Below, one piece after another: positions 14,383-19,388 of a stretch of 64,000 nt of DNA (within the stretch, counting starts at the first letter, position 1; every line of letters starts with the position of its first letter). Position numbers and translations under genes: made by a program. The notes under the pieces are model-generated. The model ran no database searches, was not told the origin of the DNA, and saw only the letters and a list, made by a program, of their open reading frames with translations. Source of the stretch: Gemmatimonas sp. (GTDB lineage Bacteria > Gemmatimonadota > Gemmatimonadetes > Gemmatimonadales > Gemmatimonadaceae); NCBI GenBank assembly GCA_965279375.1, contig OZ257156.1:2688001-2752000 (forward strand), in the 5' to 3' direction.

Positions 14383-15444
14383 ATGCGCCGCTCGCTGAGT
14401 TGGCGTGGGTTTCGTCGCGGCGCTGGGCTGCTGGCCACGCTGTGTGCAGCGGTGCTCTGCCTCACACCGATGGGGTGCTACATCTCGCGCGCTGCGTTCG
14501 AGGAAGCGCGCATTCTGTCGCGCCGGCAGTCGATCGCCAAGCTCGCCGCCGACACCAGCAGCACATCCAAGATTGACGCGGCCACGCGAGCCAAGCTGGG
14601 ACTAGTGGTCGCAGCTCGCAACTTCGCCGTCGATTCCCTGGGGCTCAAGGCAGGAAAGAGCTTCACGGCATACTCTCGTCTCGACCGCGACACGCTCGTG
14701 CTGGTGCTATCGGCCGCCTATCGCGATCGATTGGAGCGGAAGACGTGGTGGTTCCCCGTGGTGGGGCGCTTCCCCTACAAGGGGTTCTTCGACTTCGACG
14801 ACGCGCGCAAGACGGCGACATCGCTGCGCAACGACGGGTTCGACGTCACCGTTGGCGCGTCCTCGGCGTTCAGTACGCTGGGGTGGTTCAATGATCCGCT
14901 GGTCAGTACGACGATCGCGACGGACTCGATCACGCTGGCCAACACGATCATCCACGAACTGCTGCACAACACATACTTCGCCAAGGGGCGCGTGCCTTTC
15001 AACGAGTCCTTCGCCAGCTTCGTGGGTGGGCGCGGCGCCGAGCACTTCTTCCGCGCCCGCGGCGACACGGCGTCCTTGCGTCGCGCCGAGGCGGATTGGC
15101 AGGATGACCTTTTGCTCGGCGCCTTCTGGGCCCGCGTGTCCCACCAGATCGATAGTGTGTTTGCCGCGCTGCCGGCTGACGCGAAAGAGGCGCGCATCGC
15201 CGCACGCGACACGGTGTATACGCACGCGCGCCGCCGGTTGGTGGATTCGATCGGTCCGCAGCTGCGCGGATATCCGGCGGGGTGGGCGGAACGCGTGCCG
15301 CTCAACAATGCAGTGCTGCTGTCGCGCAGAGTGTACGCCGAAGGGTTGGATGGATTCGATTCGGTGTACGTCGCGGAGGGGCGCGATTTGCGGCGCGCGA
15401 TTGAGAAGATCATCGCGCGGGATCGGGAGACGGTACGAAAGTAG
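14383..15444 (+). CDS. Putative exported zinc aminopeptidase
   Basis: Signal/lipobox-like N-terminus, WWFPVVGRFPYKGFF, STLGWFNDP, HELLH...NESFA (HExxH+E). Confidence 0.85.
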   Translation: MRRSLSWRGFRRGAGLLATLCAAVLCLTPMGCYISRAAFEEARILSRRQSIAKLAADTSSTSKIDAATRAKLGLVVAARNFAVDSLGLKAGKSFTAYSRLDRDTLVLVLSAAYRDRLERKTWWFPVVGRFPYKGFFDFDDARKTATSLRNDGFDVTVGASSAFSTLGWFNDPLVSTTIATDSITLANTIIHELLHNTYFAKGRVPFNESFASFVGGRGAEHFFRARGDTASLRRAEADWQDDLLLGAFWARVSHQIDSVFAALPADAKEARIAARDTVYTHARRRLVDSIGPQLRGYPAGWAERVPLNNAVLLSRRVYAEGLDGFDSVYVAEGRDLRRAIEKIIARDRETVRK

Positions 15445-15448
15445 GGAC

Positions 15449-15529
15449 CGGTAACCGGTCACGCCGTTGGCTGTTCGGCGGCCGGTCACGCAGTTCGCCG
15501 TTCGGTAACCGGTCACGCGGTTCGCTCCA
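15449..15529. repeat. Three 27-bp tandem units (consensus CGGTAACCGGTCACGCAGTTCGCCGTT)
   Basis: Units start at 15449, 15476 and 15503; the third unit begins the long hairpin. Confidence 0.9.
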
Positions 15530-15731
15530 CTGATCTCCCGTCACTCACCACTCGTAGCCCGAAACAGGGGTGTGTCGAGTTGGCGGTCCTCGACCCCGCC
15601 TGATCTGAGTGAGAAACTCTGAACCGGGAACTGGCGACTGCGCCCTGCCGCCGCTCTGACACTCCTCTGTTCCGGGTCGCGAGTGGTGGGTGGTCAGTCT
15701 TGAGTGGAGCGAACTGCGTCACCGGTTACCG
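15503..15731. repeat. Long structured repeat, copy 1 (rod-like hairpin; putative ncRNA)
   Basis: Left arm 15503-15586 is complementary to right arm 15648-15731; direct repeat of 16190-16410 at offset 687. Confidence 0.9.
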
Positions 15732-16086
15732 GTGACGATTGGACACGCCGGCGTAAGCCGAAGAGCATCTTTCGCACGCCGACCAATTCGTCCATCAGAG
15801 ACACCGCTTCGGCTGGATCAATCAGCGCCAGCTCCCGCGCCAGCTTGAGATGACTCTCCAGCTCATTCGCCGACGCAATCGCGATGGTGAGAAATCGCGC
15901 GAACTGCGCCGGCGAATCCTGCCCGGCGCCCTCCGCGATGTTCGAGGGAATCGATACGGCCGCGCGGAGCAACTGCGCGCGGAGTCCGGGCGCGTTGCGA
16001 TGGGTGAGGCGTTTGGAGGCGGGATGCAACGCGAGCGTGAGCGCGTGTGCTCTCTGCCAGACATGGAGTTTGTTGTGATCCTGCAT
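15694..16086 (-). CDS. Four helix bundle protein (23S rRNA IVP / TIGR02436-like)
   Basis: KLHVWQRAH, LRAQLLRAAVSIPSNIAEG, FARFLTIAIASANELESHL; 130 aa. Confidence 0.93.
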   Translation of the reverse strand: MQDHNKLHVWQRAHALTLALHPASKRLTHRNAPGLRAQLLRAAVSIPSNIAEGAGQDSPAQFARFLTIAIASANELESHLKLARELALIDPAEAVSLMDELVGVRKMLFGLRRRVQSSPVTGDAVRSTQD

Positions 16087-16162
16087 GGCGACAACGTGCG
16101 GAGCAACGGCGGAATGGCGGTAACCATTTCGATGCCCGGTAGTGCCGATTCACGCATCCAAC

Positions 16163-16410
16163 CGGTAACCGGTCACGCAGTTCGCCGTTCGGTAACCGGT
16201 CACGCAGTTCGCTCCACTGATCTCCCGTCACTCACCACCCGTAGCCCGAAACAGGGTTGTGTCGGGTTGGCGGTCCGCGACCCCGCCTGAGCTGAGTGAA
16301 AAACTCTGAACCGGGAACTGGCCACTGCGCCCTGCCGCCACTCTGACACTACTCTGTTCCGGGTCGCGAGTGGTGGGTGGTCGGTCTTGAGTGGAGCGAA
16401 CAGCGTGACC
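16163..16410. repeat. 27-bp unit plus long structured repeat, copy 2
   Basis: Unit 16163-16189, then 16190-16410 matches 15503-15723 with 13 substitutions and no indels (manual alignment). Confidence 0.9.
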
Positions 16411-16466
16411 CTTCACCGGCGGAACCGGATGGAGCAAACCAGGTGACTGGTTACCGAGAACAACCC

Positions 16467-19349
16467 CTACGGCGTCTTCGCCTCCGGCTGCAGTACGAAT
16501 CGCGCCCGATTCGTCTCACTCAAATACACCTTCGCCGCCGCCGCCAACTTCTCCGTCGTCAACCCCGCAATCAGTTCGTCGTTGGCGAACACCGTCGTCG
16601 GGTCGTCGCCGTTCTCGATGCGGTCCCGCAGCACTCCCGCCCACCAGCTGTTCTGTTTGCGCGTGACCTCGAGTCCGCGGCGCTGCTGCTCGCGTACGCG
16701 CTCAACTTCCGCGGCCGTCGGCGGGACGCGACGGAGCGAATCGAGCTCCTGGCGCACGGCGGCGAACAGTGAGTCCGCCTTCTCCGGTGCCGAGCCGTAG
16801 TCGATGACCAACTGCCACTCCTGACGGGGACGGCGCGAGAAGCCCGCGTTGACGCTTACCGAGTAGGTCGCCCCCAACGATTCGCGCAGACGGTCCAGCA
16901 GGCGCATCTGCAGCAGCTCGCCAACGGAACCGATCAGATATGCCTGCTCGCGGCTCCACGCGCCTGTGCCCGCGAGCATCAGCACTGTCTGGCTCTGCGG
17001 AGCGACGCCCTTGCGCACCGTCTTGTCGATCTGTCCGGAGAACAGCTTGGGGCCAACATCGCGGAACGTCTCTTTGCGACCCGTCGTCGGCAACGACGCC
17101 AGCCACTGCTCCACGAGCGGCTTGAGTACCGCCGCGTCGACGTTGCCCACGAACACGAACGAGAAGTCGCCCGCCTCGCCGAAGCGATCCTTGTAGATCG
17201 TCAGCAGCTGACCAAGATCGAGTTCCTTCAGTCGATCCACTGAGATCGGCCGTGCGCGCGGACTGCCGCCGGCGAGTGTGACCGTGATCGTGTCGCCAAA
17301 CACCGCGCTCGGATTCGCGTCCTTGTTGCGCAACTGGTTGTCGAAATTCTGCAGCAGCGCTTGAAAGACCGCGCTGTCGGCACGTGGTGCCGTCATGCGC
17401 AACCACGTGAGCTGCAGCAACGTCTCGAGATCGCGAGGCGAGGCGCGCCCGCTCAGGCCTTCGCTCAGATCACTGATCGACGGCGCAACACTCGCGACCT
17501 TGCCAGTCAACTTCTTGTTGAGATCGACCTGCGAGAAATCACCGACGCCGCCATTCGACAACACCAGCGCAGCGAGCGATGTGCGGAACACCGCGCTGTC
17601 CGGCGCAAGACTGACACCGCCCGGACTCCATGCCGTCATCAGAATCTGATCGGCGTTGTAGTCCGTCGGCTTCACGAAGACGCGAATGCCATTGGACAAC
17701 GTCCACTCGGTCAGTCCGATGCTCTCATACTTCTTCTCGGCCACCACGCGACCGGCCGTGGGGACCGTCTTCACCAACGCGCCGTCGACAACCGTCTCCG
17801 TCCACGCGGCAATCGTTGCAGAAGCAACCGTGCGGAAGACTGCGCGAATCTCCGTCTCGGTCGGCGGCGTGAGGCCAGCCTTCTCGGGCATCGTCACTGT
17901 GACGACGCGGTTCTGCGCGCCGGTGCGCGCATTGCCCAACGCGTTCACTTCCGCCAGCGTGATCGCGGGAAGCAACCGCTTGGCCGCCTCATACTCGAAC
18001 GCGATACCAGGAATCGCATCGCCCGAGAGATAGTTGTCGATGTACTCACTCACAAAGGCGTCCGACGGCGTCTTGTCGCGCTCCGTGTACGCGCGCTCAT
18101 AGGCGCGCAACATGCTCACGCGGGCCCGCTCCAATTCGGCGGGGAGAAAGCCGAAGCGATTGACGCGTTCGGATTCCGTGAGCACCAACTGCAACGCGTC
18201 GAGCAGGCGACCTTCCTTCGCGGCCGCGTCGAGCGAGTAGTAGTCGGCACCACGCACGAGGTTACCGCCGCCGCCACCCGCACCGAGGAACGGAGCATCC
18301 GGCTTGCGAGAGAGCTCGCCGAAGCGCTGGTTGAGCATGCTGTTGTAGAGACTCTGCATCATGTCGCGACGCAGGTCGCTCACGAGCCGTGCGTTCGTCG
18401 GCGGCAGCTTCCACAACACACCGATCGAGGAGGACGTGATCTCCGCATCCGTCGCGATCGTCACGAGCGTCGAGTCGTGCGACGGCACACGAGCCAGCAC
18501 GCGGGGGCGCGAGGCCGCGCGGCGCGGAATCGGTCCGAAGGTCTTCCTAACCAACGAAAGCAGCGAATCCGGATTGGCGTCGCCGACCGCGATCACCGCC
18601 ATCAGCTCCGGCCGATACCAGTCCCGCCAGAAGCGCTTGATCTGCGCCGGGTTTGCCTTCTCGAGAATCTCCGGCTTGCCAATCGGCAGGCGTTCTGCGT
18701 AGCGCGAGCCGCGAAAGATCACCGGGAACTGCTTCGAGCGCACGCGCTCGTCGGCGCCGAGTCCGTTGCGCCACTCGGAGAGCACCACGCCGCGTTCGGC
18801 GACGACCGCGCTGGAATCGAAGAGAATGCCGGTGGCAACATCGCCAAGGAATTCGAAGCTCTTGGCGAGAATGCGCGCGCTGTCCGTGGGAACCGGAAGG
18901 ATGTAGATCGTTTCGTCGAAGCCCGTGGAGGCGTTCAGGTCGGCACCGAAGCGCACACCGATCGACTCGAGGTACTTGACGATTTCGTTCTTCGCGAAGT
19001 GACGTGTGCCGTTGAAGGCCATGTGCTCGAGGAAGTGCGCCAGACCCTGCTGGTCGTTGTCCTCGAGGATGGAGCCGGCGTTGATCACCAGGCGCAGCTC
19101 TGCGCGCTGCTCAGGCTTGGCGTTCCGCCGGATGTAGTAGCGCAGGCCATTGGACAGCGTACCGATGCGCACCGACGGATCGACTGGCAGCGCGGTAGTC
19201 AGCGCGAATGAGTCGACGGCGGGCTTCGATGCGCGTTTGGAGGGGGCCTGCGCACCGACCGAAAGAGCGAGCGGCCCAGCGGCGATGGCGAGTGCGACGA
19301 TGGCGCTGCGGCGCGTAATGCGACGGGGCATCCAATGGGCAATGCGCAT
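16467..19349 (-). CDS. M16 family zinc peptidase (PqqL-like), exported
   Basis: GTLSNGLRYYI, inverted zinc motif HFLEH, LNASTGFDETIY, second half WTLSNGIRV; signal peptide; start uncertain. Confidence 0.93.
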   Translation of the reverse strand: MRIAHWMPRRITRRSAIVALAIAAGPLALSVGAQAPSKRASKPAVDSFALTTALPVDPSVRIGTLSNGLRYYIRRNAKPEQRAELRLVINAGSILEDNDQQGLAHFLEHMAFNGTRHFAKNEIVKYLESIGVRFGADLNASTGFDETIYILPVPTDSARILAKSFEFLGDVATGILFDSSAVVAERGVVLSEWRNGLGADERVRSKQFPVIFRGSRYAERLPIGKPEILEKANPAQIKRFWRDWYRPELMAVIAVGDANPDSLLSLVRKTFGPIPRRAASRPRVLARVPSHDSTLVTIATDAEITSSSIGVLWKLPPTNARLVSDLRRDMMQSLYNSMLNQRFGELSRKPDAPFLGAGGGGGNLVRGADYYSLDAAAKEGRLLDALQLVLTESERVNRFGFLPAELERARVSMLRAYERAYTERDKTPSDAFVSEYIDNYLSGDAIPGIAFEYEAAKRLLPAITLAEVNALGNARTGAQNRVVTVTMPEKAGLTPPTETEIRAVFRTVASATIAAWTETVVDGALVKTVPTAGRVVAEKKYESIGLTEWTLSNGIRVFVKPTDYNADQILMTAWSPGGVSLAPDSAVFRTSLAALVLSNGGVGDFSQVDLNKKLTGKVASVAPSISDLSEGLSGRASPRDLETLLQLTWLRMTAPRADSAVFQALLQNFDNQLRNKDANPSAVFGDTITVTLAGGSPRARPISVDRLKELDLGQLLTIYKDRFGEAGDFSFVFVGNVDAAVLKPLVEQWLASLPTTGRKETFRDVGPKLFSGQIDKTVRKGVAPQSQTVLMLAGTGAWSREQAYLIGSVGELLQMRLLDRLRESLGATYSVSVNAGFSRRPRQEWQLVIDYGSAPEKADSLFAAVRQELDSLRRVPPTAAEVERVREQQRRGLEVTRKQNSWWAGVLRDRIENGDDPTTVFANDELIAGLTTEKLAAAAKVYLSETNRARFVLQPEAKTP

Positions 19350-19388
19350 GAAATCGATTGGGTGAGTAGTCATGGGGCCGGCGGTGGG

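What the first reader, a model, noticed from the sequence alone, without database searches (positions are those of the whole stretch)
15447..16456. Four-helix-bundle (IVP/Avd-like) gene cassette between two copies of a long structured element: candidate undescribed RNA-protein system or mobile unit
Seen: a lone 130-aa four-helix-bundle gene (15694-16086, minus strand) lies between convergent peptidase genes. It is flanked by direct repeats 15503-15723 and 16190-16410 (offset 687 bp, 13 substitutions, no indels), each self-complementary over ~80-nt arms. The ~1-kb block starts with CGGTAACCGGTCAC (15449) and ends with its near-inverse GTGACTGGTTACCG (16443-16456). No transposase, integrase or RT is nearby. 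Known: this family (TIGR02436/23S rRNA IVP) was first found inside RNase III-excised intervening sequences of 23S rRNA, shares its fold with the RNA-binding DGR accessory protein Avd, and has no assigned function. Inference: the protein binds its flanking structured RNA/ssDNA, and the cassette spreads or is processed as a unit, possibly with an enzyme supplied in trans.
Basis: partly seen in the sequence, partly recalled or inferred. Interest (0 to 1): 0.88.

Follow-up and report, generated by a model that had tools for sequence, protein, structure and literature searches.

The report
Hairpin-flanked four-helix-bundle gene cassette
The genome's only gene of the "ribosomal-RNA intervening-sequence protein" family lies between two copies of a long hairpin repeat that occurs nine more times without the gene; relatives in many phyla sit between similar pairing arms, so it is likely a transposase-free mobile cassette, here in a bacterial class where no RNase III gene was found.

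Summary
Observation confirmed. A 130-aa PF05635 gene (15694-16086, minus) lies between two direct copies of a 251-nt hairpin repeat (16 differences, no indels). This complete genome holds 11 full copies of the repeat but one PF05635 gene, so 9 copies are gene-less.

The pairing is not chance. In the same genus, 34 of 50 PF05635 loci have flanking direct or inverted repeats (controls 1/250 and 1/72). Across phyla, 34 of 71 have tight inverted arms (mock windows 1/259), and 36 of 37 arm pairs have a 7-nt period. One sister species carries a different PF05635 gene, in opposite orientation and with unrelated hairpins, at the same aminopeptidase/M16 junction. That junction is empty in 6 of 9 relatives.

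Best reading: an rRNA-IVS-type cassette outside rRNA with gene-less derivatives, likely mobile. The mechanism is unproven.

New here: no RNase III gene was found in 46 of 46 genomes of this class, against 14 of 15 in sister classes, and this genome has no reverse transcriptase or Y1 transposase. RNase III excision therefore cannot be how it works here.

Against: other hairpin families lack any linked PF05635 gene, and there is no covariation and no RNA data.

This scan has noted the same package on other DNA (162 notes). I found no paper describing it.

The parts
14383..15444 (+). Left host gene: PF10023 putative aminopeptidase. Its stop codon lies 2-4 nt before the element.
   Evidence: Pfam E 4.7e-79; sequence
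15447..15502 (+). Outer left terminal array: two extra, degenerate 27-nt units of the arm-end motif
   Evidence: the repeat finder families D2/D3; unit map; period 27 with autocorrelation 0.71 and a weak period 7 at 0.48
15482..15732 (+). Hairpin repeat copy 1 (251 nt). Its right arm overlaps the last 39 nt of the IVP ORF.
15694..16086 (-). The genome's only PF05635 (23S_rRNA_IVP) gene, 130 aa, pI 10.3. It is a four-helix bundle. The disordered tail 122-130 is encoded by the hairpin arm.
15709..15733 (.). Inner arm, pairing with 16161-16185. This 25-nt inverted repeat is 96% complementary and tightly encloses ORF plus leader, which is the canonical arm-ORF-arm layout.
   Evidence: the repeat finder I6; in the predicted fold of the whole sense RNA this stem encloses the ORF
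16087..16160 (-). 74-nt leader upstream of the IVP start codon. No sigma-70-like promoter was found.
16161..16185 (.). Inner arm partner: an extra 27-nt unit to the left of hairpin copy 2
   Evidence: I6, D2
16169..16419 (+). Hairpin repeat copy 2 (251 nt, 94% identical to copy 1)
16430..16457 (.). Outer right terminal unit, the inverse of the left units. It ends 10 nt before the M16 stop codon.
   Evidence: the repeat finder I5/I8
16467..19373 (-). Right host gene: M16 peptidase, convergent with the aminopeptidase
   Evidence: Pfam PF05193 and PF00675

Best explanation
The block is a gene cassette built like an ORF-bearing rRNA intervening sequence but sitting between protein genes. It holds the genome's single PF05635 four-helix-bundle gene, enclosed by pairing arms, and it is likely a transposase-free selfish element whose gene-less hairpin copies are its derivatives.

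Shown:
- The arms here are two complete 251-nt palindromic repeats, so they are direct and inverted repeats at once.
- Nine more copies lie alone at gene ends elsewhere in the genome.
- The arm-gene-arm layout is the rule for this protein family in the genus and across phyla.
- The cassette is present, absent or replaced at one and the same junction in sister species.

Inferred:
- The basic protein (pI 10.3), predicted from its solved relatives to be pentameric, would bind the short repeat units of its own arms. It would do so on extruded DNA hairpins, or on its transcript.
- That binding would favour copying or retention of arm-bounded DNA at permissive sites just past stop codons, using host replication or recombination enzymes.
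- Solo hairpins would arise by recombination between the two direct arms, like solo LTRs, or as non-autonomous copies.

No RNase III gene was found in this genome or anywhere in its class, and no reverse transcriptase was found in this genome. The arms therefore most likely act at the DNA level here, not as an RNase III-cut RNA stem or a retroelement template.
For: (1) Linkage within the genome. There is one PF05635 gene in a 99.95%-complete single-contig genome. Two of the 11 full repeat copies flank it. Of 250 random windows of the genome, 1 showed flanking direct repeats and none inverted repeats.

(2) Recurrence in the genus. Of 50 PF05635 loci with at least 300 nt on both sides, 34 have flanking repeats: inverted in 32, direct in 17, both in 15. 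Seven have none. The control was 1 of 72 windows in relatives' aminopeptidase loci.

(3) Unrelated arm sequences, same layout. This holds in G019, G020 and G006, with copy-to-copy spacings of 660, 684 and 584 nt against 687 here. Each arm family is also dispersed in its own genome.

(4) Across phyla. Of 71 loci, 34 have tight inverted arms, against 1 of 259 mock windows. The best period is 7 in 36 of 37 arm pairs, with a control of 1 of 255. Protein distance correlates with heptamer distance: Mantel r 0.263, with 45 of 5000 permutations as high.

(5) Insertion polymorphism. The aminopeptidase/M16 spacer is 0-96 nt in 6 of 9 relatives. It holds a different IVP cassette in opposite orientation in G019, and solo hairpins in G005 and G011. 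The site of copy c4699k is empty in G014 and G011.

(6) The repeat is young and lineage-specific. Copies are 88-94% alike. It was not found in the 60 relatives searched.

(7) The classical Coxiella rRNA IVS has tandem heptamers before its S23p ORF (PMC4990558, passages).

(8) Protein. The AF2 model has pLDDT 90.2. Fold matches are 2GSC (TM 0.84), 2RLD and DGR Avd (TM 0.71). Entries 2GSC and 2RLD hold five chains each.

(9) No rival enzyme was found. PF01797 and PF00078 are both absent from the genome, and no transposase lies next to any copy.
Against: - Nine of 11 copies lack the gene.
- A second hairpin family in this genome (7 members by a seed screen; BLAST hits in 15 bins of 300 nt) has no PF05635 gene at all.
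- The solo-hairpin families of G005 (over 25 loci) and G011 (about 35) are not next to the PF05635 places listed for those genomes (against 13). Hairpin families can therefore persist, and perhaps spread, without a linked gene.
- Sixteen of 50 genus loci and 37 of 71 wide loci lack detectable flanking repeat pairs.
- No target-site duplication could be defined.
- There is no covariation among the 11 copies: one compensatory pair, not above shuffles.
- G.U against A.C mismatches are balanced in the wide set (47:48) and only mildly skewed here (100:63 cells among related copies).
- The two flanking copies are not clearly each other's closest relatives. They differ at 12 sites, against 10 between c2704k and c5104k, and the tree is unresolved.
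- The family has no known catalytic activity.
- Protein binding, transcription and movement have not been observed.
- The Mantel signal may reflect co-inheritance rather than recognition.
Confidence: 0.5

Rival explanations
1. Passenger between two independent MITE/REP-like insertions. The hairpins would be an autonomous-enzyme-dependent repeat family that piles up at permissive spacers past stop codons, and the four-helix-bundle gene would merely share that site preference or be trapped there.
For: - Nine of 11 copies have no gene.
- A second gene-less hairpin family exists in the same genome.
- The G005 and G011 hairpin families are not linked to the listed IVP places.
- Some junctions are hotspots. 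The aminopeptidase/M16 junction carries four different inserts. The ArgJ 3' site holds this hairpin here and a different heptamer hairpin in G006.
- Two direct copies also bracket a 3-kb blaR-blaI block.
Against: - Flanking by repeats on both sides is found in 34 of 50 and 34 of 71 loci, against about 1 in 70 to 1 in 260 for controls.
- The arms differ between cassettes, yet track protein similarity.
- The genome's only such gene has two of the 11 copies.
- No Y1 transposase is in the genome and no transposase lies beside any copy.
Confidence: 0.2
2. RNA-level device only. The hairpins would be terminators, stabilisers or processing sites that set the ends and level of the IVP mRNA, or insulate the neighbouring genes, with no role in DNA mobility.
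For: - The folds are very stable (z -11.4 and -8.6).
- The + strand folds 13.5 kcal/mol better than the - strand.
- No own promoter or intrinsic terminator was detected.
- The rRNA IVS precedent is RNA excision (PMC4990558).
Against: - No RNase III gene is present in the genome or the class.
- Nine copies serve no IVP gene.
- Presence and absence vary among species.
- There is no covariation, and G.U:A.C is balanced in the wide set.
Confidence: 0.12
3. Integron-like cassette. A 687-bp circle of gene plus one hairpin would recombine at resident hairpins (attC-like folded sites) through an unlinked site-specific recombinase.
For: - Direct hairpin copies flank one promoter-less small gene.
- Similar unit lengths (584-687 nt) occur in four species.
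- One Logan contig of one run joins 15720 to 16202, though its shorter side is only 21 nt, which is too weak to count.
Against: - No integrase was found among the ORFs scanned near the cassette.
- Solo copies are scattered singly rather than in arrays.
- The model moves the gene among existing hairpins but does not explain how the hairpins spread.
- attC core sites were not tested with a model.
Confidence: 0.08
4. Assembly artefact: one repeat copy was duplicated by the assembler.
For: None found.
Against: - The copies differ at 16 of 251 sites.
- Independent short-read contigs run from unique DNA into each copy, and a single-copy-depth contig spans gene plus both inner repeat ends.
Confidence: 0.01

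Closest known systems
ORF-bearing intervening sequences (IVS) of 23S rRNA (Coxiella burnetii helix 45 with S23p; Leptospira), PMC4990558
   Same: - The same protein family (PF05635).
- The ORF is enclosed by complementary arms, and short tandem repeat units lie before the ORF (heptamers in Coxiella).
- No transposase is present.
- Both have long been suspected of being mobile.
- ORF-less hairpin forms exist.
   Different: - It lies between protein genes, not in rRNA.
- The arms are whole 251-nt palindromes with 27/38-nt end units rather than a roughly 28-bp stem.
- Nine dispersed gene-less copies exist.
- The host class has no detectable RNase III, the enzyme that excises rRNA IVSs.
REPIN-RAYT systems (recalled from general knowledge; no paper read here)
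   Same: A single-copy gene is flanked by members of a dispersed, species-specific family of palindromic intergenic repeats. That is the logic by which RAYTs were tied to REPs.
   Different: The gene is a four-helix bundle, not a Y1/HUH transposase, and PF01797 is absent from the genome. No catalytic role is known.
MITEs and their autonomous insertion sequences
   Same: Short, multi-copy, intergenic elements with terminal inverted repeats, related to one longer gene-bearing copy.
   Different: There is no transposase in the gene-bearing copy and no definable target-site duplication. The number of terminal units varies.
Avd, accessory protein of diversity-generating retroelements (PDB 4DWL, 8UBE)
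   Same: The fold is the closest functionally characterised one (TM 0.71). It is a basic small four-helix bundle that works with structured nucleic acid.
   Different: Sequence identity is 14-16%. There is no reverse transcriptase anywhere in the genome, and no template or variable repeats.
Bacterial heptamer simple-sequence repeats (Xanthomonas, Nostoc: PMC4692102; cyanobacterial STRR, recalled)
   Same: The arms of most cassettes in the wide survey are inverted heptamer arrays. PMC4692102 (passages) reports 70-75 convergent heptamer-array pairs in Xanthomonas without linking them to a gene. Two cyanobacterial plasmid cassettes show such arms.
   Different: In this window the 7-nt period is only a trace (0.48); periods of 27 and 38 nt dominate.

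Membership tests
PF05635 / 23S_rRNA_IVP (four helix bundle protein) | Profile match above the curated cut-off | tested here: met
   E 3.2e-30, 104.9 bits against 33.8, residues 6-109
PF05635 / 23S_rRNA_IVP (four helix bundle protein) | Four-helix-bundle fold like Xcc0516 and BT_0352 | tested here: met
   AF2 pLDDT 90.2 with four helices; Foldseek matches 2GSC at TM 0.84 and 2RLD at 0.74
PF05635 / 23S_rRNA_IVP (four helix bundle protein) | Conserved motif RxxxSxxxNxxE (as given in PMC3936711) | tested here: met
   R41, S45, N49 and E52 are present; R41, N49 and E52 are invariant in 12 genus sequences
PF05635 / 23S_rRNA_IVP (four helix bundle protein) | Homopentamer | not tested
   Only indirect: the PDB entries 2GSC and 2RLD hold 5 chains each
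ORF-bearing rRNA intervening sequence (IVS) | Inserted in a helix of 23S (or 16S) rRNA | tested here: not met
   It lies between aminopeptidase and M16 peptidase genes; Rfam gave only a sub-threshold miRNA-model hit in 15000-17000
ORF-bearing rRNA intervening sequence (IVS) | Complementary termini that enclose the ORF in a stem | tested here: met
   25-nt arms, 96% complementary, at 15709-15733 and 16161-16185, plus the outer arms; predicted fold
ORF-bearing rRNA intervening sequence (IVS) | Excision from the transcript by RNase III | tested here: not met
   No RNase III gene was found: PF14622 and PF00636 absent; TIGR02191 in 0 of 25 genomes; tblastn with E. coli Rnc gave best E 3.5 while the Era control gave 2e-58; 0 of 46 genomes of the class. 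Cleavage itself cannot be tested here.
ORF-bearing rRNA intervening sequence (IVS) | Tandem heptamer units in the arms (Coxiella; general in the wide survey) | tested here: inconclusive
   Periods of 27 and 38 nt dominate; period 7 scores only 0.48
MITE | Terminal inverted repeats, small size, many copies | tested here: met
   11 copies of about 250 nt with inverted end units
MITE | Target-site duplication, and a parent element encoding a transposase | tested here: not met
   No duplication could be defined; the end motif occurs only at these elements (39 matches); no transposase lies beside any copy
REPIN-RAYT | The flanked single-copy gene is a Y1 (HUH) transposase | tested here: not met
   The gene is PF05635; PF01797 is absent from the genome, while the control rang in 6 of 14 genomes
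DGR (Avd accessory protein) | Neighbouring reverse transcriptase with template and variable repeats | tested here: not met
   No PF00078 anywhere in the genome
Integron gene cassette | attC site with R/L core boxes, and an IntI integrase | not tested
   No attC model was run and no genome-wide integrase search was made; there was no integrase among the ORFs scanned in window 3.7-30 kb

The most novel reading that the evidence does not exclude
PF05635 proteins are the missing driver of a transposase-free class of hairpin elements. Each pentamer recognises the short repeat units of its own arms on folded DNA and makes the host copy arm-bounded segments. This seeds the species-specific palindromic and heptamer repeats that litter many bacterial genomes. 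The mechanism works without RNase III, so the rRNA intervening sequence is only one landing site of a general DNA element.
Probability: 0.3. Interest if true: 0.9.

Novelty: new variant of a known kind. Interest (0 to 1): 0.72.

Why it matters
PF05635 is a very large protein family with solved structures, and it has had no assigned function since 1993. Bacterial heptamer arrays and many species-specific palindromic repeats are equally unexplained. This locus ties the two together in an unusually clean setting:
- a complete genome with one such gene and one cognate hairpin family of 11 copies;
- no reverse transcriptase and no Y1 transposase;
- no RNase III gene found in any of the 46 genomes of its class that were searched.

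A single knockout or complementation should therefore say whether the protein maintains or spreads its hairpins. The RNase III-free background separates a DNA-level role of the arms from the RNA excision known for rRNA intervening sequences.

Tried and rejected
- Rfam, E-value mode, on 15000-17000: only a sub-threshold miRNA-model hit (20.1 bits against 60.4).
- Covariation among the 11 copies: too little divergence, nothing above shuffles.
- Strand test by G.U against A.C: balanced in the wide set (47:48). Here it is 100:63 cells, but the copies share ancestry, so this is not significant.
- Target-site duplications: the ends are blurred by variable numbers of terminal units, and none could be defined from copy flanks or from empty sites.
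- Tree of copies, to ask whether the two flanking copies are sisters: unresolved.
- Closest relative G022: synteny is broken after the aminopeptidase, so it is uninformative.
- Expression: no RNA holder was listed among the public runs. The four holders are contigs of one sample at even depth.
- One Logan contig joint, 15720 to 16202, in one run with only 21 nt on its shorter side: too weak to read as a deletion or circle.
- Promoter and terminator scan: nothing found. The consensus may not fit this phylum.
- Phage collection: no homologue at E 1e-5.
- Comparison of arm length with RNase III-positive classes of the phylum: only 5 loci, 2 of them with arms (24 and 31 nt), which is too few.
- My recollection that PF05635 belongs with HEPN-type domains was not borne out. 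The paper search listed 3 papers, and none looked relevant from its title or abstract start; Foldseek listed no HEPN protein near the top. I dropped the idea.
- Literature: eight searches found no paper that describes PF05635 genes outside rRNA as repeat-bracketed cassettes with gene-less copies. Subscription journals, and the 1993 Ralph and McClelland paper itself, were not read.
Full report
**What is there.**
The window is G000:C1:2688001-2752000 of a single-contig, 5.31-Mb genome of 65% G+C that is 99.95% complete.

The ORF 15694-16086 (minus strand, 130 aa) matches PF05635 (23S_rRNA_IVP) at E 3.2e-30. It lies between a PF10023 aminopeptidase gene (+) and an M16 peptidase gene (-), which converge.

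Two direct repeats flank it. Each copy is a long imperfect palindrome. As RNA the + strand folds at -149.7 kcal/mol (z -11.4) and the - strand at -136.2 (z -8.6).

The ends of the repeat are arrays of a unit with a 27-nt period on the left and a 38-nt period on the right, and the number of units varies from copy to copy. One such unit on each side forms a 25-nt, 96% complementary inverted repeat (15709-15733 with 16161-16185) that tightly encloses the ORF and its 74-nt leader. In the predicted fold of the whole sense RNA, this inner stem encloses the ORF while the two cores fold locally (a prediction only).

The ORF's last 13 codons are read from the hairpin arm. In the AF2 model residues 122-130 fall below pLDDT 50.

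Short-read contigs of four runs of one sample give no sign of an assembly duplication.

**A genome-wide repeat family, but only one gene.**
The repeat has 11 full-length copies in the genome, 88-94% alike, plus fragments at three further places. PF05635 occurs once. Nine copies are therefore gene-less.

These solo copies lie in spacers 15-130 nt from the ends of unrelated genes: M14, M42, ArgJ, glyoxalase/metallophosphoesterase, imuB-like/dnaE2, and blaI-blaR. No transposase lies beside any of them.

The repeat was not found in 36 same-genus or 24 same-order genomes; the only hit was a 25-nt match at E 2e-4. The other half, no enrichment next to such genes, fails clearly, as the next two sections show.

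**Recurrence in the genus.**
PF05635 homologues occur in 57 of 61 genomes searched, G000 included, with up to 12 per genome.

At the same aminopeptidase/M16 junction, G019 carries another PF05635 gene. It is 51% identical, lies in opposite orientation, and sits between two direct copies of a long hairpin of unrelated sequence, spaced 660 nt apart. G020 and G006 show the same layout with yet other hairpins. Each of these hairpin families is dispersed in its own genome.

I then examined 53 loci:
- 40 further same-genus places, taken in list order, skipping those within about 900 nt of a contig start;
- the 12 relatives' loci already held;
- the window's own locus.

Fifty of the 53 have at least 300 nt on both sides. 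Of those 50, 34 have flanking repeats: inverted in 32, direct in 17, both in 15. Seven have no repeat at all, and the rest have a palindrome on one side only. Controls run with the same criteria gave 1 of 250 random G000 windows and 1 of 72 windows in relatives' aminopeptidase loci.

**Recurrence across phyla.**
A scan of named genome contigs with an alignment of 12 genus proteins returned 80 loci. They come from Acidobacteriota, Chloroflexota, Planctomycetota, Bacteroidota, Actinomycetota, Verrucomicrobiota, Cyanobacteriota, Gemmatimonadales and others.

- Of 71 loci with full flanks, 34 have an inverted-repeat pair tightly enclosing the gene (37 of all 80). Mock windows gave 1 of 259.
- In 36 of 37 the best period of the arms is 7 nt. 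Autocorrelation is at least 0.6 in 29 left and 31 right arms, against 1 of 255 control windows.
- Median left-arm length is 38 nt.
- Protein distance correlates with heptamer distance: Mantel r 0.263, with 45 of 5000 permutations as high, over 29 loci. Arms and gene therefore travel together, or recognise each other.
- Two plasmid examples from cultured cyanobacteria, the only 2 examined of 20 plasmid records with a match, show the gene between mirror-image heptamer arrays. In both it lies antisense between two co-directional host genes, in one case the two ribonucleotide reductase subunit genes.

The classical Coxiella rRNA IVS has tandem heptamers before its S23p ORF, and RNase III cuts at the first one (PMC4990558, passages read). 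The same paper relays the 1993 idea that the IVS is a mobile element whose ORF serves mobility. PMC4692102 reports abundant paired, convergent heptamer arrays in Xanthomonas and does not link them to a gene (passages).

**Comes and goes.**
Nine relatives keep both host genes in the fetched locus.
- In six, the spacer is 0-96 nt.
- One (G019) has the other cassette.
- Two (G005, G011) have solo hairpins of yet other families.

The site of solo copy c4699k is a 6-nt spacer in G014 and a short spacer in G011. The ArgJ 3' site holds this hairpin in G000 and an unrelated heptamer hairpin in G006. Spacers just past stop codons are thus repeatedly colonised. No target-site duplication could be defined.

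**What the host lacks.**
- No Y1/HUH transposase (PF01797) and no reverse transcriptase (PF00078) were found in the genome. Both searches rang in control genomes.
- No RNase III was found either. PF14622 and PF00636 are absent. TIGR02191 occurs in 0 of 25 genomes of the order. tblastn with E. coli Rnc gave a best E of 3.5, while the Era control gave 2e-58.
- In a draw from the phylum, PF00636 was found in 0 of 46 genomes of the window's class, all at least 96% complete, and in 14 of 15 genomes of the other classes.

The enzyme that defines IVS excision is therefore missing from a clade that is rich in these cassettes. Their arms are long in this genus: best inverted matches run 40-213 nt, against a median of 38 nt in the wide set. 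Whether arm length is connected with the loss of RNase III is open, because only 2 armed loci from RNase III-positive classes of the phylum were seen (24 and 31 nt).

**The protein.**
The AF2 model has pLDDT 90.2 and four helices. The closest structures are Xcc0516 (2GSC, TM 0.84) and BT_0352 (2RLD), followed by DGR Avd (4DWL and the 8UB* ribonucleoprotein entries, TM about 0.7, 14-16% identity). The protein has pI 10.3. Eleven polar or charged residues are invariant in 12 genus sequences.

**Reading.**
Shown:
- The layout itself.
- Its recurrence far above controls.
- The dispersed gene-less copies.
- Presence/absence among species.
- The absence of the usual enzymes.

Inferred:
- The cassette is a selfish, mobile unit.
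- The protein acts on its own arms.
- Solo hairpins are recombined or non-autonomous derivatives.
- The arms work at the DNA level here.

Evidence against a strict gene-drives-hairpins model:
- A second hairpin family in this genome has no PF05635 gene.
- The G005 and G011 families are not next to the listed genes.
- There is no covariation.
- The wide set shows no strand bias.
- The two flanking copies are not demonstrably sisters.

**Relation to earlier notes of this scan.**
After I had reached the arm and heptamer generalisation, a look-up showed 162 earlier notes in at least 154 genomes describing the same package on other DNA, also as apparently unpublished. What this window adds:
- the double-palindrome arm variant;
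- a clean one-gene, one-family complete genome;
- independent filling of one junction in sister species;
- the RNase III-free background, which speaks against the RNase III-centred reading given in several of those notes.

**Verdict.**
This is a new variant of a known kind (an IVS-type cassette outside rRNA, with MITE-like derivatives). Its mechanism is unproven but directly testable.

Noticed in passing
whole genome G000 and 45 other genomes of its class (no window coordinates): No RNase III gene was found by three profiles and by tblastn. PF00636 occurs in 0 of 46 genomes of the class and in 14 of 15 genomes of other classes of the same phylum. This looks like a class-wide loss of a near-universal enzyme. 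I could not establish whether it is in print: one search listing was not informative.
   Followed up: partly
G000:C1 233227-233360, 1466034-1466160, 1626459-1626592, 1667272-1667425, 3021131-3021248, 4609299-4609432, 5223143-5223280 and others: A second, unrelated family of hairpins about 130 nt long. A seed screen found 7 members, and BLAST hits fall in 15 bins of 300 nt. There is no PF05635 gene for it in this genome.
   Followed up: partly
G000:C1 5098480-5109666 (L105): Two direct copies of the window's hairpin (5100849-5101066 and 5104055-5104274) bracket a block of about 3 kb holding blaR-blaI. The block separates an imuB-like gene from dnaE2, and a third copy follows dnaE2. A second blaI-blaR pair also has a copy about 150 nt upstream (4237267-4237516).
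   Followed up: no
L051:2535-2705 (G005) and L055:2525-2725 (G011): The same aminopeptidase/M16 junction holds gene-less long hairpins of two further families. Each is dispersed over 25 or more loci in its own genome, and none lies next to the PF05635 places listed for those genomes.
   Followed up: partly
L241:2760-2935 (G006): The spacer after argJ holds the window's hairpin family in G000. In G006 the same spacer holds an unrelated hairpin made of mirror-image heptamer arrays.
   Followed up: no
L260:300-800 (Nostoc edaphicum plasmid) and L259:250-800 (Calothrix sp. PCC 7716 plasmid): PF05635 genes lie antisense between two co-directional host genes (the ribonucleotide reductase subunits; a secretion protein and its ABC transporter). 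Each is bracketed by mirror-image heptamer arrays. Nostocales are where tandem heptamer repeats were first described (recalled).
   Followed up: partly
G000:C1 2272538-2272702: A hairpin whose right flank runs into a perfect tandem array of a 6-nt unit, repeated at least 8 times.
   Followed up: no
relatives' contigs (one search list): Many PF05635 matches in draft genomes start within a few hundred bases of a contig end. That is what repeat arms breaking short-read assemblies would produce.
   Followed up: no
G000:C1 4699100-4699160 and L256:1400-1470: Upstream of the glyoxalase gene, G000 and G011 share a conserved TTGAC-like box followed by an AT-rich palindrome, probably an operator. The hairpin insertion in G000 stops just short of it.
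   Followed up: no
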